Positions 36,087-45,094 of a stretch of DNA of 64,000 nucleotides are shown one piece after another. A program made the translations under genes and the position numbers. The first letter of the stretch is position 1; every line of letters starts with the position of its first letter. The stretch covers positions 8,814 through 72,813 of the forward strand of contig MWDC01000002.1 in the NCBI GenBank assembly GCA_002070355.1. Direction: 5' to 3'. The DNA comes from Parcubacteria group bacterium ADurb.Bin159 (GTDB taxonomy: Bacteria; Patescibacteriota; Patescibacteriia; UBA2591; MWDC01). The notes beneath the pieces were generated by a model. The model saw only the letters and a list, made by a program, of their open reading frames with translations, did no database searches and was not told the DNA's origin.

Positions 36087-36244
36087 TTTGGTCGCAATTA
36101 CTGAACGAGGGAATTTAATTTTTACTTTACAAATTTTAGAATTGGAAAGACCGACTGTTTTGGCTTTAAATATGGCTAACTTACTCAAGGGCGAAAGCGA
36201 GGGCGGGGCAGGAATTCCTTTCCCCCAATTCCTTTTCCTTATTT

Positions 36245-37336
36245 TTACTCTACGGCTATACGACGTACATAAACGTAAATTGAAGAAAGGTAATAATCAT
36301 AAGGGGTAACTTTTAAAGTATACTCTCCCGCCTGGTTAGGAGTAAAATAAAGTTTTCTCGTAATTGAAGTAACTTTTCCATCAAAATTACGAGGCCTTGT
36401 AAAAGGTTCTTCTTTGCTAATATAAATTATTGTTTTTTTATCAGGATTTTTTAATTCTATTTCTACTGAGAATTTTGGATCCGGCAATTCTATTTGAGGC
36501 ATAACTTGAACTTCTAAAATCATTTTTTCATTTATTGCCTCTGTTAAAGAAAATTTGACCGTGGTTGGCGTCCCAGGCACTATACAAGAGGGATCCAAAG
36601 TTCCCTTTTCCCCCACCGAAGTATTTATTAATAAAACTGATGTACAGGGAAATTTATTTTGCCAGACAATTGGATATTTCTTTTCTTCTTTGGTCCCCAG
36701 AAAAATACCGGCAGCTAAAGCTCCAATTGTCAGTAAAATCCCACAAATAATAATAATTGTTTTTTCTTTTTTAGAAGCGTGTTTATATACCTTTTTTGTT
36801 TCTTTAAAAGATTTTTCTTCTTTCGCTGTTTTTTTCTTATTAATTTCCAAAGCAAAACCAACATTAAATTTGGTTAAAATTAATAAAATTGCTGATTTGA
36901 GTTGTATTAAAAGCATTAAGATAATATCAACGAAACCAGCCCAAAAAATAAAATCAATAACTTTTCCTTGAATAGTGAAACCAACAAAATTATTAATTAC
37001 TTCCGGAAATACCCATACAAAATTAGGGTCTACTCCCAAATTAAAAGAATTAAAAAATTGATAAGCATGAGTATAATAAAAATAAGCGATAAAAGAAAAA
37101 ATACCTATTTGAAGCCAAGGTGGAGAAAAAAGTGATAACAACTCGGCTGTCGTACCAACCACAAGGAAAATACCCAAAAGTATCTCAAACAAATACTGCC
37201 CTTGGTTAAAATTCAATTTGCTTTGAATAATAATAAGAACAAAAATCCCTATCCCTACAAAACAAAATAGCCATAAAAGCAAAGAAATAATTTTTGAAAA
37301 AATATTCCAAATAATTTTTCCAAAGGAAACGTTCAT
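36245..37336 (-). CDS. polytopic membrane protein (about 6 N-terminal TM helices) with a C-terminal ~150-aa extracytoplasmic domain; paralog of the next gene
   Basis: Its C-terminal domain shares VE(I/V)ELKNPDKKTIIY(I/L)(S/E)KEE, W(Q/R)..FP.T, and AG(E/D)YTLK(V/I)TPY with the protein at 37346-37897. Confidence 0.6.
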   Translation of the reverse strand: MNVSFGKIIWNIFSKIISLLLWLFCFVGIGIFVLIIIQSKLNFNQGQYLFEILLGIFLVVGTTAELLSLFSPPWLQIGIFSFIAYFYYTHAYQFFNSFNLGVDPNFVWVFPEVINNFVGFTIQGKVIDFIFWAGFVDIILMLLIQLKSAILLILTKFNVGFALEINKKKTAKEEKSFKETKKVYKHASKKEKTIIIICGILLTIGALAAGIFLGTKEEKKYPIVWQNKFPCTSVLLINTSVGEKGTLDPSCIVPGTPTTVKFSLTEAINEKMILEVQVMPQIELPDPKFSVEIELKNPDKKTIIYISKEEPFTRPRNFDGKVTSITRKLYFTPNQAGEYTLKVTPYDYYLSSIYVYVRRIAVE

Positions 37337-37345
37337 ATTTTTATT

Positions 37346-37897
37346 TTACGTTGCTTCACGAATTGTTACATCAATATATTCAATGCCGTAGCTATAAGGA
37401 GTAATTTTTAAGGTGTAATCTCCTGCTTTTTCAATAGTAAAATTAAATTCTTTAAAAGAATTAGAGTTTTTATTTGGAGAATTAGGAATAGATCCTTTTA
37501 AAATTTCTTCTTTTTCTAAGTAAATAATTGTTTTTTTGTCAGGATTTTTTAATTCTACTTCAACAGAGGCCTCTGGCGAATTTTTCCCTTCTTGAATAAG
37601 AGGTTGCATAGCAACCATTAAATATAAAATTAATTTTTCATTTTCTTTCTCTAATGGAATAAGAGCTGTTTTTGTTTCTCCTGGTTTAATCGAGGAAGGA
37701 AGTAAATTGTCTTTTTTACCACAATCTTCTTTATAACAAATAGCTGTTCCAGGAAATCTGCCTCGCCAAATAGCAGGATGTTTTATCTCTTGTTGATCCG
37801 CAAACCAAACAATGGTAAAAATTACTCCTACAGCAAGCGCCATAGTAAAAAACATTATAAAAAGAGGATTTTGAAATATGTTTCGTTTTTTGGGCAT
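37346..37897 (-). CDS. single-TM membrane protein with the same extracytoplasmic domain (paralog)
   Basis: 183 aa; an N-terminal TM helix followed by the shared domain. It lies 9 nt upstream of its paralog and is co-oriented with tRNA-Pro. Confidence 0.6.
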   Translation of the reverse strand: MPKKRNIFQNPLFIMFFTMALAVGVIFTIVWFADQQEIKHPAIWRGRFPGTAICYKEDCGKKDNLLPSSIKPGETKTALIPLEKENEKLILYLMVAMQPLIQEGKNSPEASVEVELKNPDKKTIIYLEKEEILKGSIPNSPNKNSNSFKEFNFTIEKAGDYTLKITPYSYGIEYIDVTIREAT

Positions 37898-38078
37898 TTT
37901 TTTTAATTTCTATAGTTTTAAAACCAAAAGATTCAATTCGCATTACTAAACGAAGTACGAACCTTTTTTGAGTAAAGTCCTGAATGATTGCCGTGCTTTG
38001 CGGGCAGACACCAAAACGGAACGCTCGGGCGGGGCGAGTGAGTGAACAAATTCCTCACAAAATTCGTAATGTTTAGAT

Positions 38079-38153
38079 TGGTCGGGGTAGCCGGACTTGA
38101 ACCGGCGACCTCATCGTCCCGAACGATGCGCGCTACCACTGCGCTATACCCCG
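38079..38153 (-). tRNA. tRNA-Pro (anticodon CGG), with CCA encoded
   Basis: The reverse complement reads CGGGGTA-TA-GCGC-AGTGGTA-GCGC-G-CATCG-TTCGGGA-CGATG-AGGTC-GCCGG-TTCAAGT-CCGGC-TACCCCG-A-CCA. This is a canonical cloverleaf with a 7-bp acceptor stem and TTCGGGA anticodon loop. Two ORF-track entries (37933-38190 and 38097-38462) overlap it and are spurious. Confidence 0.9.
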
Positions 38154-40575: not shown

Positions 40576-41802
40576 ATGGCGTTTTTTAGGACAATTAAAA
40601 ATATTAAAAATCTTTACGGGAAACGAGTTTTAATGCGCGTTGATTTTAATTTTACCCTAAAAGACGGAAAACCCATAGATAGTTTTCGTTTAAAAGCCAT
40701 ATTTCCTACTTTAGAATTTTTAAAACCATTTAGAACAAAACTAATTTTAATCAGTCATTTTGGCGAACCCAAGGGAAAATTTGATAAAAAATATAGTTTA
40801 GAGCCTATAGCTAAATGGCTATTAAACCAAGATAAAATTTTTCAAAACTTAAAATTTATTGTCAATCCGTTTGAGAAAGAGGGGAGAGAAGCAATCCAAA
40901 ATTTGAAAGAAGGAGATATTGCTCTTTTAGAAAATATCCGCTTCTGGAAAGGAGAAGAAGAAAATAATCCAAAATTTGCGCAAAAATTAGCTAATTTTGG
41001 GGATATTTATATTAACGAAGCATTTTCTGTTTCTCATCGAGCACATTCTTCTATAACGGGATTACCTAAAATTTTACCCAGTTACGCTGGGATAAATTTT
41101 GAAAATGAAGTTAATAATTTAAATCAAGTTTTAAAAAAATATCATCATCCTTTTACTCTTATTTTAGGAGGAGCAAAAATTAGCACTAAACTTGGTTTGC
41201 TTTTAAATTTTAAGAACAAAGCAAATTTTATTCTTATTGGCGGCGCTATGGCTAACACTTTTTTAAAAGCAAAGGGATCCAATATAGGCAATTCTTTAAT
41301 AGAAGAAACAATGCTTTCAAAAGCCAAAGAAATTCTAAAACAAAAAAATTTGATTTTACCTAATGATGTGATGATAAAAATGAGAAATAAAAAAATACGA
41401 ATTATAGATATTGACAAATTAAACGATTTAAAGCATAATGATTTTAAGATATTGGATATTGGCCCGAAAACGATAAAAAAATTTTCTGATATTATTAAAA
41501 CATCTAAAGAAATAATTTGGAATGGACCATTAGGTTATTTTGAGGAGAAACCCTTTACTCAAGGAACGGTAAAAATAATTCAAAGTATTTTGTCTAATAA
41601 AAAGGCGAGAATAACTATTGGTGGGGGAGAAACCATAGTTTGCCTTGGACAGGCAAAGGTTAAACGTCCGATGCCAAATGCCGAAAATAAAATATTCGTT
41701 TCTACTGGAGGAGGGGCGATGCTTGAATTTTTAAGCGGGAAAGAATTACCCGGTTTAATCGCCTTGACAAAAAATAAGGATTTGGTAAATTTAAATAAAT
41801 AA
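40576..41802 (+). CDS. pgk: phosphoglycerate kinase
   Basis: 408 aa. N-terminus VLMRVDFNFTLKDGKPID, the hinge, and C-terminal nucleotide-binding GGGETIV / GGGAMLEFL motifs. Confidence 0.9.
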   Translation: MAFFRTIKNIKNLYGKRVLMRVDFNFTLKDGKPIDSFRLKAIFPTLEFLKPFRTKLILISHFGEPKGKFDKKYSLEPIAKWLLNQDKIFQNLKFIVNPFEKEGREAIQNLKEGDIALLENIRFWKGEEENNPKFAQKLANFGDIYINEAFSVSHRAHSSITGLPKILPSYAGINFENEVNNLNQVLKKYHHPFTLILGGAKISTKLGLLLNFKNKANFILIGGAMANTFLKAKGSNIGNSLIEETMLSKAKEILKQKNLILPNDVMIKMRNKKIRIIDIDKLNDLKHNDFKILDIGPKTIKKFSDIIKTSKEIIWNGPLGYFEEKPFTQGTVKIIQSILSNKKARITIGGGETIVCLGQAKVKRPMPNAENKIFVSTGGGAMLEFLSGKELPGLIALTKNKDLVNLNK

Positions 41803-41814
41803 AATAATTTAGCC

Positions 41815-41901
41815 GAAGAAAGTAGGGGATTATAACAATCTTAAAAATCCTATTGAGGCAAAACATTAGACCTACTTTCTTCTTTATACTGTAGGTTTTT
41901 T
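41815..41901 (+). terminator. pgk 3' structure: a perfect 12-bp inverted repeat gaagaaagtagg/cctactttcttc (41815-41826 and 41871-41882), plus an alternative cctac..gtagg + T6 hairpin (41871-41901)
   Basis: There are two mutually exclusive pairings for the cctac segment. The T-run is followed by tatataat (41901-41908), a -10-like box. Confidence 0.45.
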
Positions 41902-41944
41902 ATATAATTAAAAAATAAATTTTACCTTTACTAAACAGAAATTT

Positions 41945-42160
41945 GTTTTCGTGGTAATCCCTCGCTACCGCTCCGAGCTTTGACAAATAATACTCGCTCG
42001 CTTCGGGGAGCCCTCTAAAATTCCGCTCGCTTTGCTCGCTCCAGTTTTAGTTTCCCTCTCGCTCGCTTCGTTTATTTGTTACAAATCTCTCCGCTCAAAC
42101 GCTCGGGATTAGACGAAAACAATTAATTTTTTCCTGCCCACCTATTGGCAGGCAGGGATT
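41945..42160 (+). promoter_or_regulatory. structured 5' leader of rplJ-rplL (candidate L10 autoregulatory leader) ending in a terminator-like hairpin
   Basis: Two 7-bp long-range helices, gttttcg..taatccc (41945-41961) with gggatta..cgaaaac (42105-42120), enclose about 140 nt rich in ctcgctcgcttcg repeats. Then cctgcc-cacctatt-ggcagg (42133-42154) plus a T-rich run immediately before the ATG. Confidence 0.5.
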
Positions 42161-42173
42161 TTTGATTTTTTTT

Positions 42174-42686
42174 ATGCCTAAAACACGTCAAGAAAAAGAA
42201 AATCTTATTAAAAATTTGTCTTATGATTTAAATGAGGCAAAAATTGTGGTTTTTACTAATCATTTAGGTTTGAATGCCAATGAATTAAATAGTTTAAGGA
42301 AAATTTTAAGAGAAAATGAATGTAAATACCAAGTAGTTAAAAAAACCCTTTTAAAAAAGGTTTACCAAAATAAAAATATAGAAGAAGAGATAGATAAACT
42401 TGAAGGAGGAGTGGGAGTAATTTTTAGTTTTGGAGACGAGATTAAGGGGCCCAAAGCAGCTCTTAAATTTTCAGAGGAAAAAGCAAAATTTAAGATAAAC
42501 GGGGGAATTTGGAATAAAAATTATTTAACTGGAAACGAAATTTTGTCTTTAGCTAATTTACCTTCTAAAAAAACGCTTTTATCCCAAGTTGCGGGTAATA
42601 TTAGTTTTCCCTTAAAACGATTAGATTATATTCTTAAATATAATTTACAAAGGTTGATTTTAGTTTTAGAATCTTTATCTAAATAA
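42174..42686 (+). CDS. rplJ: 50S ribosomal protein L10
   Basis: MPKTRQEKENLIKNL..IVVFTNHLGLNANELNSLRKILRE..KYQVVKKTL. Confidence 0.9.
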   Translation: MPKTRQEKENLIKNLSYDLNEAKIVVFTNHLGLNANELNSLRKILRENECKYQVVKKTLLKKVYQNKNIEEEIDKLEGGVGVIFSFGDEIKGPKAALKFSEEKAKFKINGGIWNKNYLTGNEILSLANLPSKKTLLSQVAGNISFPLKRLDYILKYNLQRLILVLESLSK

Positions 42687-42703
42687 TTTTTATATTTTTT
42701 ATT

Positions 42704-43132
42704 ATGGTTGAAGAAAAACAAAAACAAGAAGAAAAAAAAGAGGCAAATGAAGTGCCTTTAAAGTTTCAGAAGATTGTTGAAGAAATAGAAAAATTGAATG
42801 TTTTGGAGCTTAGCGAGTTAGTTAAGGTTCTGGAAAAGAGATTTGATATTTCTCCTATGCCGATAGTAAGCGGAGCGATAGGGGTGGCTTCTGAAGCGCC
42901 AGAGAAGAAAGGTGAAGAACAAACTGTTTTTAATGTGGAATTAGCTGATGCGGGAACGAATAAAATCGGAGTGATTAAAAGCTTAAGAGAAGTTATTCAG
43001 ATTGGTTTAAAAGAAGCTAAAGATTTAGTTGATAATTTACCCAAAGTTGTTAAAGAGGGGGTTAATAAAGAAGAGGCCGAAACATTAAAGAAAAAGTTTG
43101 AAGAAGCGGGGGCGAAAGTGAATTTAATCTGA
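42704..43132 (+). CDS. rplL: 50S ribosomal protein L7/L12
   Basis: The C-terminal domain FNVELADAG..KIGVIKSLREV..GLKEAKDLVDNLPKVVKEGVNKEEAE..KKKFEEAGAKV. Confidence 0.9.
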   Translation: MVEEKQKQEEKKEANEVPLKFQKIVEEIEKLNVLELSELVKVLEKRFDISPMPIVSGAIGVASEAPEKKGEEQTVFNVELADAGTNKIGVIKSLREVIQIGLKEAKDLVDNLPKVVKEGVNKEEAETLKKKFEEAGAKVNLI

Positions 43133-45094
43133 AATTTGATATATTTCTGTTCCGGCAAGCAAGGTTATAACCCCATTTTTTTCTTCTATGCTTTTTAGGT
43201 TGGCAAAAGCAGGATTTTTATATTGGCTTACAAGCTCTCCTTCTTTATTATAAATAATAATTCTTTCTGTTTCTTTATCAGTAAAATAAAGATTATCTGT
43301 TTCAGAATGGGTATAAAGAAGAGCAGCGTTTTCTATTTCAGGGAAAACGTCTTTTTGTTTAAATTCTTTTTGTTCGCCGAGATAAAATTTGCTTATTATC
43401 CCGTCATTTCTTAGTAAATAGATATTGCCATTTATAGCAAAAGAAGCAATATTAGTGAAATTTCTTGGTTGGTTTTCCAATATCCAAGGCGTTCCTTTGG
43501 AAAAACCAATAATTGTTTCGGGGTATTTAAAAATTTGATGGGCTGTTTTGTCTAAAACATAGAGCCTGCCACCGTAAAGAGAAATATCGGAAATTTCAGT
43601 ATTATTTTGAGCTAATTCAATTGTTAGAGGAGTATAAGTTTTAGTTTTTAAATTAAAACGGCCAATATGTTTTGTCTCATCTAAAACCAAAAGATTGTCT
43701 TTATCCCAAGATATTAATTTATCAATTGTTGTTTTACCCTCTAAAGAAGTAGAGTAAAGAACAGATTTTTTGTTTAAAAGATTTATTTGCCAAAGATGAT
43801 TTGTTGTTTTATTGATTACATAAAAATAATCGCCATTCATTAATAAATTTGTTGGATTAAAGTTGATTTCTAAATCTTTAAGGCTAAACAAAGGAGTCAG
43901 ATCAATTGTCTGATATTTAAAGTATTGATTTATTAAAGCAAGCCATTCTTTTTTTAGGTCAGCATATTTTTCTTTTTGTAATTCATTGTTTTGGGGGAAT
44001 TCTTCTAAAATTGTTTCCATTTCTTTTAAAATAGTTTTTATTTCTCCCCCTGTTTGAACTACAGACAATTGTTCTTTTCTAAGATCGAATTCGGTTTGCG
44101 TCTCGGTAAGAAGTTGTTCTTCTTTTTTAATTTGAGAATTCTTTTTTGAGACGCTAATATTTTGAGCGAAAATAATTAAAGCAATGATAATTAAAATAAA
44201 AATAGCTTTTTGAAGAGAGCTTAAATGAGGCAATCGCACCTTTTTATTTTTTAAGGGTTGTTCTATCTTATAACCATTTTCTGGGACAAGATTAGCTAAC
44301 TCTTTTTTGGGCGGTTTTACTTTAACTTCTTTAATCTCTTTAACCTCTTTTTTTTCAGGTTTTAACTGTTCTTCCTTTTTATTTTCCGCTAAAAGTTTTT
44401 TTTCATCTTCTTCCTTATTATTTTTTGTTTCTTTCATTTGAATAATAAGCCCCTCTAAATTAAAATTAAAAGAAGAAGAACGATTTTCCAAAACAGCTTG
44501 AAATTCTAAAGGATTATTTGTTTTAAGCAATTCAGATATTTTATCTTCAGCAAAATAATCAAAGATATTTTCTAAAGTAAAAAACAAGGTATCTCCTTCG
44601 GATAAATTTCCGCTGATTATATTAATAAATTTTTTATCCTTTTCTTTCTCTTTGGGCTCGAGAAATTCAAATTGATTATCAGAAACTAAAAAAATTTGAA
44701 ACCCGCCGAATTTAGAAGAAAATATTTTTTCTTCAACAGCAAGAACTAAGCATAGCTCCATATTCTCAAAATATAATTTTTGAGAACGGAGTATTTCCCT
44801 TTTAAGCCAATCGTTGATTTTATTGAGCAAATTTTCAAAACCATCTTCCGGGGATTTAATTGATTCTATAGGGTTATAATAAATATCTTCTATTTGTATT
44901 AAAATTTTTTTTATAAATTCTTTAATTTCATCCTTTTCGTTTTTTAGGGGAGGGGAAGAAAACCAAAAATTGCTCATTAAATAAATATTGCCAAATTTTT
45001 GGAATTTACCAGTTGGCTCAATAGAGCGAATTAAGGGATAATTTTTCGCTTCAAGATTGTCGTCCCAGCAAAAATATGAGATTTGTGTTTGCAT
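43124..45094 (-). CDS. hypothetical bitopic membrane protein: N-terminal cytoplasmic domain (weak PP2C-like pattern), K/E-rich linker, TM helix, C-terminal beta-propeller-like repeats
   Basis: 656 aa. A TM helix AIFILIIIALIIF at about residue 300. The C-terminal repeats (GRLYVLDKTAHQIFKY, NLYFTDKETERIIIYNKEG) resemble NHL/YVTN blades. LSEGDTLFFTLENIFDY weakly resembles the PP2C GD..SDG motif. Confidence 0.45.
   Translation of the reverse strand: MQTQISYFCWDDNLEAKNYPLIRSIEPTGKFQKFGNIYLMSNFWFSSPPLKNEKDEIKEFIKKILIQIEDIYYNPIESIKSPEDGFENLLNKINDWLKREILRSQKLYFENMELCLVLAVEEKIFSSKFGGFQIFLVSDNQFEFLEPKEKEKDKKFINIISGNLSEGDTLFFTLENIFDYFAEDKISELLKTNNPLEFQAVLENRSSSFNFNLEGLIIQMKETKNNKEEDEKKLLAENKKEEQLKPEKKEVKEIKEVKVKPPKKELANLVPENGYKIEQPLKNKKVRLPHLSSLQKAIFILIIIALIIFAQNISVSKKNSQIKKEEQLLTETQTEFDLRKEQLSVVQTGGEIKTILKEMETILEEFPQNNELQKEKYADLKKEWLALINQYFKYQTIDLTPLFSLKDLEINFNPTNLLMNGDYFYVINKTTNHLWQINLLNKKSVLYSTSLEGKTTIDKLISWDKDNLLVLDETKHIGRFNLKTKTYTPLTIELAQNNTEISDISLYGGRLYVLDKTAHQIFKYPETIIGFSKGTPWILENQPRNFTNIASFAINGNIYLLRNDGIISKFYLGEQKEFKQKDVFPEIENAALLYTHSETDNLYFTDKETERIIIYNKEGELVSQYKNPAFANLKSIEEKNGVITLLAGTEIYQISD

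What the first reader, a model, noticed from the sequence alone, without database searches (positions are those of the whole stretch)
41803..42173. 370-bp pgk-rplJ spacer: alternative hairpins, a -10 box, and a long GC-rich closed leader ending in a terminator-like hairpin before rplJ
Three structured elements follow one another. (1) A perfect 12-bp inverted repeat at 41815/41871, whose right arm can instead pair with gtagg plus T6. This is an either/or arrangement typical of attenuators. (2) tatataat at 41901-41908. (3) A ~175-nt segment closed by two 7-bp long-range helices (41945-41961 with 42105-42120) and filled with ctcgctcgcttcg-type repeats, which are GC-rich islands in a ~30% GC genome. 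It is followed by cctgcc..ggcagg plus a U-run just upstream of the ATG. The layout matches L10(L12)4-mediated autoregulation by transcription attenuation at the rplJ leader, as known in Bacillus. The primary sequence, however, does not resemble the known leader, as far as can be judged by eye.
Basis: partly seen in the sequence, partly recalled or inferred. Interest (0 to 1): 0.6.

Follow-up and report, generated by a model that had tools for sequence, protein, structure and literature searches.

The report
Known L10 leader plus hairpin insertion
The spacer starts with an ordinary ribosomal-protein L10 feedback switch of an already catalogued RNA family, followed by a species-specific, roughly 270-base GC-rich hairpin insertion whose role is unknown.

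Summary

**The L10 leader.** The first element (41795-41911) is the known L10 leader. Rfam RF00557 scores 51.4 bits against a gathering score of 44. It has the L10-binding hairpin, a 12-bp antiterminator and a terminator with a U6 run. The claim that the sequence does not resemble the known leader is therefore wrong.

**The GC-rich segment is not part of that sensor.**
- Seven other Parcubacteria rplJ loci also carry the leader.
- In six of them the terminator's U-tract (or, in L256, the antiterminator's 3' arm) lies next to the ATG. Leader start to ATG is 95-158 nt, against 379 nt here.
- About 272 nt (41902-42173) is therefore an insertion seen only in this species.

**What the insertion contains.**
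- A 180-nt rod-like hairpin (41943-42122).
- A second hairpin plus U-tract just before the ATG.
- In the rod, AT-rich helices alternate with C-rich GCTCGCT-type segments, all on the + strand.
- A diverged strain lineage lacks exactly the apical 98 nt.
- No second copy was found anywhere I could search.

**Other points.**
- TATATAAT is not supported as a promoter.
- Near-identical GCTCGCT-NN-GCTCGCT units recur in many viral contigs, with unknown meaning.

Function of the insertion is unproven. I favour a tolerated passenger insertion.

The parts
41764..41791 (+). Sigma-70-like promoter of rplJL inside the 3' end of pgk (TTGACA, 16 nt, TG-n-TAAATT)
   Evidence: 10 of 12 matches, TG extension. 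An equivalent TTGACA...TATATT sits at the same place in the nearest relative L011. Function is inferred.
41795..41911 (+). L10 leader, Rfam RF00557 (full-length match)
   Evidence: 51.4 bits against gathering score 44; E = 2.7e-5 over the window and 3.3e-7 over 801 nt.
41813..41858 (+). Predicted L10(L12)4 binding domain (anti-antiterminator). It consists of the CCGAAGA box (41813-41819), a hairpin at 41822-41853 with the internal loop UUAAAAA (41841-41847), and the GAGG box (41855-41858).
   Evidence: Alignment to the RF00557 consensus. The lower helix covaries among 8 Parcubacteria leaders: GUAGG/CCUAU, GUAGG/CCUAC, GCAGG/CCUGC, GUAGG/CCUGC, ACAGG/CCUGU. Protein binding is inferred from the B. 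subtilis work (PMC4538822).
41815..41882 (+). Antiterminator: 12-bp helix of 41815-41826 with 41871-41882. It shares GUAGG (41822-41826) with the binding hairpin.
   Evidence: (-20.4 kcal/mol). An equivalent helix with different sequence exists in all 7 relatives (-14 to -20 kcal/mol).
41869..41901 (+). Leader terminator T1: stem 41869-41875 with 41891-41897, a 15-nt loop, and U6 at 41896-41901. It shares CCUAC with the antiterminator.
   Evidence: -7.8 kcal/mol. It is a rather weak hairpin. Its function as a terminator is inferred.
41902..41942 (+). AT-rich linker. It contains most of the TATATAAT string (41901-41908) and the only SNP of the spacer (41925 C/T).
   Evidence: No promoter support.
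41943..42122 (+). 180-nt GC-rich rod-like hairpin. AT-rich helices alternate with C-rich GCTCGCT-type segments that face each other.
   Evidence: 57 predicted pairs: 28 AU, 26 GC, 3 GU; -49.3 kcal/mol. Absent from relatives.
41983..42080 (+). Apical 98 nt of the rod, absent in the strain lineage of L004, L006 and L009. The indel is bounded by the direct repeat ACAAAT (41983 and 42081) at the base of an internal hairpin.
   Evidence: The short form still folds as a stable hairpin (z = -4.4).
42023..42042 (+). Apical unit CC-GCTCGCT-TT-GCTCGCT-CC. Further GCTCGCT heptamers are at 41996 and 42061 (inside the 13-mers at 41993-42005 and 42058-42070). CGCTC partial copies are at 41969, 42092 and 42100. 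All are on the + strand.
   Evidence: There are exact 20-mer matches in three viral contigs and a one-mismatch variant in more than 88.
42131..42173 (+). Second hairpin T2 (42131-42138 with 42151-42158, plus an inner 2 bp), followed by U5-GA-U8 directly before the rplJ start codon
   Evidence: -16.1 kcal/mol. Identical in all 11 strain sequences. Terminator activity is not shown.
42174..43132 (+). rplJ (42174-42686) and rplL (42704-43132), the regulated genes
   Evidence: (Pfam Ribosomal_L10, Ribosomal_L12).

Best explanation
The spacer consists of two unrelated things in series.

**(a) A canonical L10 leader (RF00557), 41795-41911.** It is transcribed from a promoter in the end of pgk. When L10(L12)4 is in excess it binds the kink-turn-like hairpin with its CCGAAGA and GAGG boxes. 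That hairpin holds GUAGG (41822-41826), so CCUAC (41871-41875) is free to pair with GUAGG (41891-41895). Terminator T1 then stops transcription at the U6 run. Without bound protein the 12-bp antiterminator (41815-41826 with 41871-41882) forms and RNA polymerase reads on.

**(b) A species-specific insertion of about 272 nt, 41902-42173.** It sits between that terminator and the start codon and takes no part in sensing L10. It consists of a 180-nt rod-like hairpin and a second hairpin plus U-tract (T2). The rod is built from same-strand GCTCGCT-type units separated by mutually complementary AT-rich linkers.

I consider the insertion a tolerated passenger. It is probably foreign or slippage-derived palindromic DNA. 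It must be transcribed through as a long structured 5' UTR. It is tolerated because T2 plus its U-tract recreates the hairpin / U-tract / AUG context that rplJ has in related genomes.

**Shown:** family membership of (a), absence of (b) in relatives, and polymorphism of (b).
**Inferred:** protein binding, termination, and the passenger status of (b).
For: **Leader**
- RF00557 hit above its gathering score.
- The same family is detected upstream of rplJ in 7 other Parcubacteria loci at 35.6-48 bits.
- The binding-hairpin helix and the antiterminator helix keep pairing through sequence changes among these loci. One example is A-to-G at the position of 41821 matched by T-to-C at the position of 41876 between the window and L011.
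- The minimum-free-energy fold of the leader is the antiterminator.
- The anti-antiterminator / antiterminator / terminator mechanism was established experimentally in B. subtilis (PMC4538822).

**Insertion**
- In the nearest relative (L011 and L012, L10 60% identical, same pgk-rplJ-rplL gene order) the whole spacer is 119 nt, and the terminator's U-tract runs into the ATG.
- Distance from the antiterminator's 3' arm to the ATG is 19-52 nt in relatives against 304 nt here.
- Rfam finds nothing in 41912-42173 even at E = 10.
- The apical 98 nt is dispensable in nature.
- No ATG-initiated or Shine-Dalgarno-preceded reading frame and no promoter lie inside it.
- rplJ has no Shine-Dalgarno sequence and follows a hairpin plus U-tract in relatives as well.
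Against: - The passenger idea is a default, not a demonstration.
- T2 looks like a strong intrinsic terminator (-16.1 kcal/mol, U-tract immediately after) in front of an essential operon with no promoter behind it. That would be costly unless it is leaky or regulated.
- The outer rod and T2 carry no SNP in 133 nt between lineages whose 4-fold degenerate sites differ by 2.6-3.7%. The expected number is about 3.4-4.9, giving P(0) of about 0.01-0.03. This hints at constraint. It is not significant against the 0-1.1% seen in other intergenic DNA.
- The same-strand arrangement of the C-rich units on both arms is not what a simple DNA palindrome would give. It suggests strand-specific selection.
- T1 is a weak hairpin (7 bp, 15-nt loop).
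Confidence: 0.6

Rival explanations
1. The whole 370 nt is one extended L10-responsive attenuator. The closed GC-rich segment is the sensor or scaffold, and the last hairpin (T2) is the regulated terminator.
For: - T2 is the stronger terminator-like hairpin and sits where the leader terminator sits in relatives, next to the ATG.
- UAAUCCC (41955-41961) could pair either with 42105-42111 or with AGGGAUU (42155-42161), which is a formal either/or (I7).
Against: - The complete RF00557 architecture, with its own antiterminator and terminator, ends at 41911.
- No second L10-leader match at E up to 10.
- The rod is absent in 7 relatives that keep the leader.
- The apical 98 nt is deleted in a natural lineage.
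- The rod's closing strand is transcribed before T2, so the rod would always win kinetically. The rod is also far more stable (-49 kcal/mol).
Confidence: 0.05
2. The rod plus T2 is a second regulatory or processing module that does not depend on L10, added to the leader. Possibilities are:
- a constitutive or factor-controlled terminator;
- a Rho entry (rut-like) region, since the RNA is C-rich and G-poor;
- an RNase III processing hairpin that separates leader and mRNA;
- a platform for a protein that recognises GCUCGCU repeats.
For: - Strong, shuffle-resistant structure (z = -4.0 long form, -4.4 short form).
- C-rich strand bias opposite to the surrounding genes.
- Seven CGCTC cores on the sense strand and none on the other strand within the rod.
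- No SNPs in the outer rod or T2 between diverged lineages.
- In B. subtilis the post-terminator part of the rplJL leader is subject to Rho.
- Another Parcubacterium (L258) also carries a GC-rich rod (z = -6.7) between the L10 leader and rplJ.
Against: - Present in one species only, so no covariation test is possible.
- The apical half is dispensable.
- Predicted to be highly structured, which is unlike a rut site.
- The SNP deficit is not significant against other intergenic DNA.
- Presence of rho or rnc in this genome was not checked.
Confidence: 0.2
3. The rod is a MITE-like or REP-like mobile palindromic element with terminal inverted repeats TTGTTTTCGT.. and ..ACGAAAACAA. The inner 98 nt may be a nested second insertion with an ACAAAT target duplication.
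For: - Terminal inverted repeats of 10 + 7 bp (z = 6.7).
- Presence/absence polymorphism bounded by a 6-bp direct repeat.
- GC-rich in an AT-rich genome.
- Another mobile insertion lies in the same window at tRNA-Pro.
- GCTCGCT-type units are dispersed in many viral contigs.
Against: - No second copy in the 64-kb window.
- The 19-nt terminal repeat finds only the rplJ locus in the metagenome collection.
- Contigs of 31-74 kb assemble straight through it.
- No hit in the phage or plasmid collections.
- The indel is equally well explained by slipped-strand deletion of a hairpin between ACAAAT repeats.
- The C-rich segments on the two arms are direct, not inverted, copies.
Confidence: 0.12
4. 41902-42173 is an independent small-RNA gene, with promoter TATAAT at 41903-41908, the rod as its body and T2 as its terminator. 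It is lodged between the leader and rplJ.
For: The layout (-10 box, structured GC-rich body, hairpin plus U-tract) is that of a typical sRNA gene.
Against: - No -35 element: best 2 of 6 matches by my own reading of the sequence, and not called by the scan. By contrast the rplJ promoter has a perfect TTGACA.
- TATAAT occurs about once per 500 nt in this genome.
- An efficient T2 would cut rplJL off from its only promoter.
- Not conserved in relatives.
Confidence: 0.05

Closest known systems
Ribosomal protein L10 leader, Rfam RF00557; the Bacillus subtilis rplJL attenuator (Yakhnin, Yakhnin and Babitzke 2015, PMC4538822)
   Same: - Position upstream of rplJL on the same strand.
- Conserved CCGAAGA...UUAA...GAGG binding domain.
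- Three overlapping structures (anti-antiterminator, antiterminator, terminator plus U-run).
- Score above the family threshold.
   Different: - Here about 272 nt of structured, lineage-specific RNA and a second terminator-like hairpin separate the terminator from the start codon.
- There is no leader peptide. B. subtilis has one downstream of its terminator.
- T1 has an unusually large 15-nt loop.
Escherichia coli rplJ leader (translational feedback by L10(L12)4). Cited from established knowledge and from the abstract of PMC4538822.
   Same: The same protein complex senses an rRNA-mimicking site in a long leader that lies more than 100 nt upstream of the start codon.
   Different: The E. coli mechanism is translational. 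Here a terminator overlaps the antiterminator, as in Firmicutes. The long distance to the AUG comes from an insertion, not from a conserved structure.
Small GC-rich palindromic insertions in AT-rich genomes: MITE, REP or BIME elements, Rickettsia palindromic elements, yeast mitochondrial GC clusters. Cited from established knowledge only.
   Same: A GC-rich imperfect palindrome with terminal inverted repeats, inserted in a transcribed intergenic region of an AT-rich genome and polymorphic between strains.
   Different: - No evidence of multiple copies.
- The GC-rich segments are same-strand direct copies rather than complementary arms.
Intervening-sequence-like insertions in highly transcribed genes, for example 23S rRNA intervening sequences excised by RNase III. 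Recalled from memory; a lead only.
   Same: A long extended stem-loop inserted in a highly expressed, ribosome-related transcript. In L258 a GC-rich rod plus a GxxExxY (PDDEXK_3) gene sits at the same place after the L10 leader.
   Different: No evidence of excision or RNase III cleavage. The host transcript is an mRNA leader, not rRNA.
GCTCGCT-NC-GCTCGCT units in viral contigs (undescribed, found here). Their complement contains d(GCGAAGC)-type C-GNA-G mini-hairpins, a stable motif known from Hirao and colleagues (from memory).
   Same: - The rod's apical 20-mer has three exact matches.
- It differs by one base from CCGCTCGCTTCGCTCGCTCC, found in more than 88 viral loci.
- Same-strand arrays with short spacers occur in 31 further loci.
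   Different: - In the T7-like cyanophage-type contigs the unit pairs with a downstream inverted copy. In the rod all units point the same way.
- The rod's apical unit has TT (an AAA loop on the complement), the rare variant (3 of 123).
- Homology cannot be separated from convergence of a low-complexity motif.

Membership tests
L10 leader (Rfam RF00557) | Covariance-model score at or above the curated gathering score (44 bits), full-length match | tested here: met
   51.4 bits, model positions 1-138 of 138, window 41795-41911 on the + strand.
L10 leader (Rfam RF00557) | Lies upstream of rplJ (L10) and rplL on the coding strand | tested here: met
   rplJ starts at 42174 and rplL at 42704. The leader ends 262 nt before the ATG, which is unusually far. 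In 6 relatives the leader runs up to the ATG.
L10 leader (Rfam RF00557) | L10(L12)4 binding domain: hairpin with an asymmetric UUAA-containing loop, flanked by the conserved CCGAAGA and GAGG boxes (mimic of the 23S rRNA site) | tested here: met
   Alignment to the consensus. The helix covaries among 8 Parcubacteria leaders.
L10 leader, Bacillus-type attenuation | Mutually exclusive anti-antiterminator, antiterminator and terminator structures, the last followed by a U-run | tested here: met
   GUAGG 41822-41826 is shared by the binding hairpin and the antiterminator. CCUAC 41871-41875 is shared by the antiterminator and T1. U6 is at 41896-41901.
L10 leader, Bacillus-type attenuation | L10(L12)4 binds the RNA and increases termination | not testable with these tools
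   Needs binding and in vitro transcription assays. The precedent is PMC4538822.
MITE / REP-like mobile palindromic element (for the rod 41943-42122) | Several dispersed copies in the genome | tested here: not met
   Single copy in the 64-kb window. The 19-nt terminal repeat finds only the rplJ locus in the metagenome scan. The rest of the genome could not be searched directly.
MITE / REP-like mobile palindromic element | Terminal inverted repeats and a target-site duplication | tested here: inconclusive
   Terminal inverted repeats are present (10 + 7 bp). The flanks are AT-rich, so a duplication (AATT / ATTA, or TTTTTTAT for the whole insert) cannot be told from chance.
Intrinsic terminator (for T2, 42131-42173) | GC-rich hairpin immediately followed by a U-tract | tested here: met
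   8 + 2 bp stem, -16.1 kcal/mol, then U5-GA-U8. Not called by the simple scan because of its internal loop. Activity is not testable here.
Rho utilisation (rut) site | About 80 nt of C-rich, G-poor and largely unstructured RNA | tested here: inconclusive
   C 54 and G 33 of 180 nt; GC skew -0.25 to -0.32. The region is predicted to be strongly structured. Presence of rho was not tested.
Independent sRNA gene | Own promoter (-35 and -10) upstream of the structured body | tested here: not met
   Only a -10-like string is present. The scan does not call it and the string is common in this genome.
Guide or bridge RNAs of IS110 or TnpB/IscB elements, and retron ncRNA | Adjacent recombinase, nuclease or reverse-transcriptase gene | tested here: not met
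   The neighbours are pgk and rplJ in every strain. No Rfam match.

The most novel reading that the evidence does not exclude
The insertion may not be junk. It may be a member of an undescribed, widely dispersed class of elements. These are same-strand arrays of a 17-20-nt GCTCGCT-NC-GCTCGCT unit separated by short AT-rich spacers. The unit's complement folds into a C-GNA-G triloop mini-hairpin with tandem G.A pairs. Such arrays occur in many viral contigs, including the non-coding regions after talC in T7-like cyanophage-type contigs and in giant-virus bins. Here one has been recruited into the 5' UTR of rplJL. In that position, together with the strong T2 hairpin, it would act as a second checkpoint on ribosomal-protein expression that does not depend on L10. 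The checkpoint could work through a bound factor, through Rho, or through RNA processing.
Probability: 0.12. Interest if true: 0.55.

Novelty: new member of a known kind. Interest (0 to 1): 0.28.

Why it matters
The regulatory core is a textbook r-protein feedback element, so the finding as submitted is largely explained. It has three modest values.

1. It documents that the Bacillus-type L10 attenuator is conserved across Parcubacteria (candidate phyla radiation bacteria). There the terminator's U-tract directly precedes a start codon that has no Shine-Dalgarno sequence.
2. It shows that the short stretch between the attenuator and rplJ tolerates large structured insertions in at least two lineages. 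If T2 terminates, this is a natural experiment on how an essential operon copes with a second terminator.
3. The GCTCGCT units link this insertion to a recurrent, unannotated motif in viral metagenomes that may deserve its own study.

Tried and rejected
**Searches for other copies**
- Other copies of the 13-mer or the terminal repeat in the window: none.
- L10-based scan of GTDB species genomes: no close relative.
- The DNA pattern CGCTCGCTTYG..CGCTCGCTTYG in GTDB genomes returned only high-GC genomes and no Patescibacteria among the 80 loci shown. I judge these hits to be noise.
- Viral scans with the paired 13-mers and with a 14-base terminal-repeat pattern gave one unrelated coding repeat and chance hits.
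- Metagenome scan with the 19-nt terminal repeat: only the rplJ locus.
- blastn against cultured phages and plasmids: nothing relevant.

**Structural and evolutionary hypotheses**
- Tandem-duplication origin of the 98-nt indel: rejected. The deleted segment has no similarity to its neighbours beyond chance. Tandem Repeats Finder found nothing.
- Second degenerate L10 leader in the T2 region (CCUGCC / GGCAGG resembles the consensus helix): not supported by the covariance model at E up to 10.
- Leader peptide as in B. subtilis: rejected. There is no ATG and no Shine-Dalgarno sequence. The only frames are a 10-codon GTG frame and a 26-codon TTG frame, and the indel destroys the latter.
- Internal promoter: none.
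- Purifying selection from strain SNPs: inconclusive.

**Other checks**
- Known RNA families at the motif in 23 viral loci: none.
- tRNA near the viral motif: none.
- Literature search for the motif sequence, and for the L10 leader in Parcubacteria: nothing.
- The GC-rich stretch next to tRNA-Pro (37925-38080): no significant structure (z = -1.1) and no Rfam match.
Full report
**Context.** The window is AT-rich (31.4% GC). It comes from a Parcubacteria (Patescibacteria) bacterium: the L10 protein is identical to one that NCBI names from 'Parcubacteria group bacterium ADurb.Bin159'. The finding covers the spacer between pgk (40576-41802) and rplJ. The rplJ start is the ATG at 42174, not the upstream in-frame TTG at 42162. 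rplL follows at 42704.

**Observation.**
- The 12-bp perfect inverted repeat 41815-41826 / 41871-41882, and the alternative CCTAC / GTAGG pairing followed by T6.
- TATATAAT at 41901-41908.
- A 180-nt segment (41943-42122) closed by a perfect 10-bp helix and a 7-bp helix. It contains two exact copies and one 77% copy of CTCGCTCGCTTCG.
- A CCTGCC..GGCAGG hairpin followed by U5-GA-U8 and the ATG.

The GC-rich segment reaches 53-56% GC with a C-rich strand bias opposite to the flanking genes. It folds far better than shuffled sequence (z = -4.0). TATATAAT is not remarkable. TATAAT occurs 127 times on the two strands of the window, and no -35 partner is found.

**What the first element is.** Rfam's L10_leader model (RF00557) matches 41795-41911 over its full length at 51.4 bits, above the curated threshold of 44. 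The alignment places:
- the conserved CCGAAGA box at 41813-41819;
- the hairpin 41822-41853 with its UUAAAAA internal loop;
- the GAGG box at 41855-41858.

A sigma-70-like promoter (TTGACA, 16 nt, TG-n-TAAATT; 41764-41791) lies just upstream, inside the end of pgk. A matching promoter occupies the same place in the nearest relative.

The 12-bp helix shares GUAGG with the binding hairpin on one side and CCUAC with the terminator stem on the other. This is exactly the anti-antiterminator / antiterminator / terminator logic shown experimentally for B. subtilis rplJL (PMC4538822). The antiterminator is the minimum-free-energy fold of the leader.

**Comparative support.** I retrieved rplJ loci for seven other Parcubacteria L10 proteins, 36-60% identical.
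- RF00557 is detected upstream of rplJ in all seven that have upstream sequence, at 35.6-48 bits.
- The lower helix of the binding hairpin changes while keeping pairs: GUAGG/CCUAU, GUAGG/CCUAC, GCAGG/CCUGC, GUAGG/CCUGC, ACAGG/CCUGU.
- Every locus has an antiterminator helix of different sequence (-14 to -20 kcal/mol). Six of the seven also have a terminator hairpin overlapping its 3' arm. In L256 none is predicted (-0.5 kcal/mol).

The statement that the primary sequence does not resemble the known leader is therefore wrong. The attenuation idea is right, for this element.

**What the rest is not.** In six of the seven relatives the terminator's U-tract (or, in L256, the antiterminator's 3' arm) lies next to the rplJ start codon.
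- Leader start to ATG is 95-158 nt, against 379 nt here.
- From the antiterminator's 3' arm to the ATG it is 19-52 nt, against 304 nt here.
- The nearest relative (L011 and L012) has the same gene order pgk, rplJ, rplL and a 662-aa gene. Its whole spacer is 119 nt.

About 272 nt (41902-42173) is therefore an insertion seen only in this species, lying between a complete leader and the ATG. No Rfam family matches it even at E = 10, and there is no second L10-leader match. It is not an artefact. Ten further contigs from JGI, ENA, NCBI and Logan assemblies carry the same spacer.

**Anatomy of the insertion.**
- An AT-rich linker, 41902-41942.
- The rod, 41943-42122: four AT-rich helices separated by C-rich segments that face each other. 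It has 57 predicted pairs (28 AU, 26 GC, 3 GU) at -49.3 kcal/mol.
- A hairpin T2 (42131-42158, -16.1 kcal/mol) directly followed by a U-tract and the ATG.

The C-rich segments are not complementary arms. They are same-strand copies. All seven CGCTC cores and all four GCTCGCT heptamers in the rod are on the + strand, with none on the other strand. The only significant similarities between the two arms are the direct 13-mer and the terminal inverted repeat. Because GC is self-complementary, the facing copies can form isolated G-C pairs separated by U.C mismatches.

**Population data.** Seven contigs match the window's spacer exactly. Three (L004, L006, L009; three different sources) lack exactly 98 nt (41983-42080) and carry one SNP at 41925.
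- These three belong to a lineage 1.2-2% diverged in the flanking genes.
- The indel removes the apical part of the rod. It is bounded by ACAAAT direct repeats at the base of an internal hairpin. That is the classic signature of slipped-strand deletion of a palindrome, although a nested insertion cannot be excluded.
- The short form is still a stable hairpin (z = -4.4).
- The outer rod and T2 have no SNP in 133 nt. About 3.4-4.9 would be expected at the 4-fold-site rate of 2.6-3.7%, but only about one at the rate of other intergenic DNA. The test for constraint is therefore inconclusive.

**Is it mobile?** I found no second copy:
- not in the window;
- not in the metagenome collection with the 19-nt terminal repeat, which returned only the rplJ locus;
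- not in the phage or plasmid collections.

Contigs of 31-74 kb assemble through it. The rest of this genome could not be searched directly, so low copy number elsewhere is not excluded.

**A lead found late.** The apical 20-mer CC-GCTCGCT-TT-GCTCGCT-CC has three exact matches in viral contigs.
- One is again near the tip of a hairpin with unrelated stems, in a phage intergenic region (L262).
- One is in the intergenic region of a small Rep-plus-capsid contig (L264).
- One appears from its context to be coding and looks like chance (L263).

Allowing the two central bases to vary gives more than 120 viral loci, where I estimate about two by chance from an assumed collection size. The central bases are TC 88, AC 13, GC 12, CC 7 and TT 3. 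The second base is C in 120 of 123 while the first varies. On the complementary strand this is the pattern of a C-GNA-G triloop flanked by tandem G.A pairs.

Many of these loci are homologous non-coding regions downstream of a transaldolase-like gene. I assign these contigs to T7-like cyanophage-type genomes from my own reading of the translated gene ends. There the unit pairs with an inverted copy about 60 nt away. The counts are therefore not independent.

Thirty-one further viral loci carry same-strand arrays of GCTCGCTTYG units with short spacers. In AT-rich loci, extra cores near a seed are all on the same strand: 58 against 0.

No Rfam family, no tRNA and no paper explains the motif. Whether the rod is related to these units or merely converges on a low-complexity, slippage-prone motif is open.

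**Mechanism, with steps marked.**

Shown:
- RF00557 membership.
- Mutually exclusive helices.
- Covariation across Parcubacteria.
- Absence of the insertion in relatives.
- A natural deletion of the rod's tip.

Inferred from the B. subtilis work:
- Excess L10(L12)4 binds 41813-41858, frees CCUAC and lets T1 stop transcription at 41896-41901.
- Otherwise the antiterminator forms and transcription continues.

Inferred by default:
- Read-through transcripts carry the rod and T2 as a long structured 5' UTR.
- T2 plus its U-tract recreates the hairpin / U-tract / AUG context that rplJ, which has no Shine-Dalgarno sequence, has in relatives.
- The insertion is a tolerated passenger.

The main tension is that T2 looks like an efficient terminator in front of an essential operon, with no promoter behind it. 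That keeps a second-checkpoint reading alive at about 0.2.

**Verdict.** This is a new member of a known family (the L10 leader) in a candidate-phyla-radiation bacterium. It carries an unexplained, species-specific structured insertion. Interest is low to moderate.

Noticed in passing
window 36095-38077: A 1983-bp segment present in the window (L002 overlaps only its right-hand 452 bp) is absent from strains L001, L003 and L008. It is inserted exactly at the 3' end of tRNA-Pro (38079-38153, - strand), with a 7-bp direct repeat TTGGTCG at both junctions. It carries two ORFs (363 aa and 183 aa, - strand) with no significant Pfam, NCBIfam or PHROG match (one sub-threshold NCBIfam hit). It looks like a small integrative element that targets a tRNA gene.
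   Followed up: partly
L258 391-1212: In another Parcubacterium the L10 leader (391-528, 35.6 bits) is also separated from rplJ (1210). The intervening DNA is a GxxExxY / PDDEXK_3 gene (590-1057) flanked by direct copies of a GC-rich GTCTGCG-type segment, followed by a very stable GC-rich rod (1058-1190, z = -6.7). The site after the leader terminator therefore seems to tolerate or attract insertions.
   Followed up: partly
Viral loci L262, L264, L366-L483 (unit) and L484-L512 (arrays): A 20-nt unit CCGCTCGCT-NC-GCTCGCTCC occurs in more than 120 viral contigs, where I estimate about 2 by chance. Its central-base variation fits a GNA triloop on the complementary strand. It is often paired with an inverted copy about 60 nt away, downstream of a transaldolase-like gene. 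Same-strand arrays of GCTCGCTTYG units occur in 31 further contigs. It has no Rfam family and no literature hit.
   Followed up: partly
window 42159-42176; L011, L013, L014, L256, L259, L260 upstream of rplJ: rplJ has no recognisable Shine-Dalgarno sequence in five of the six relatives (L011 has a weak AAGG about 11 nt upstream). In the window an AGGGA lies about 15 nt upstream, too far to count. In five of the six relatives the start codon follows the leader terminator's U-tract within about 25 nt. This suggests the U-rich tract itself serves as the ribosome landing site.
   Followed up: no
window 43124-45094 (- strand): A 656-aa ORF converges on rplL and overlaps its last 9 nt. It has no Pfam domain. 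It is conserved as the neighbour of rplL in the sister lineage, where it is 662 aa (L011, L012).
   Followed up: no
window 37925-38080 (- strand): A GC-rich stretch directly downstream of tRNA-Pro, inside the strain-specific insertion. It has no Rfam match and no significant fold (z = -1.1).
   Followed up: yes
window 41234-41236 in L003: One strain has a 3-nt in-frame deletion in pgk, giving 407 instead of 408 aa.
   Followed up: no
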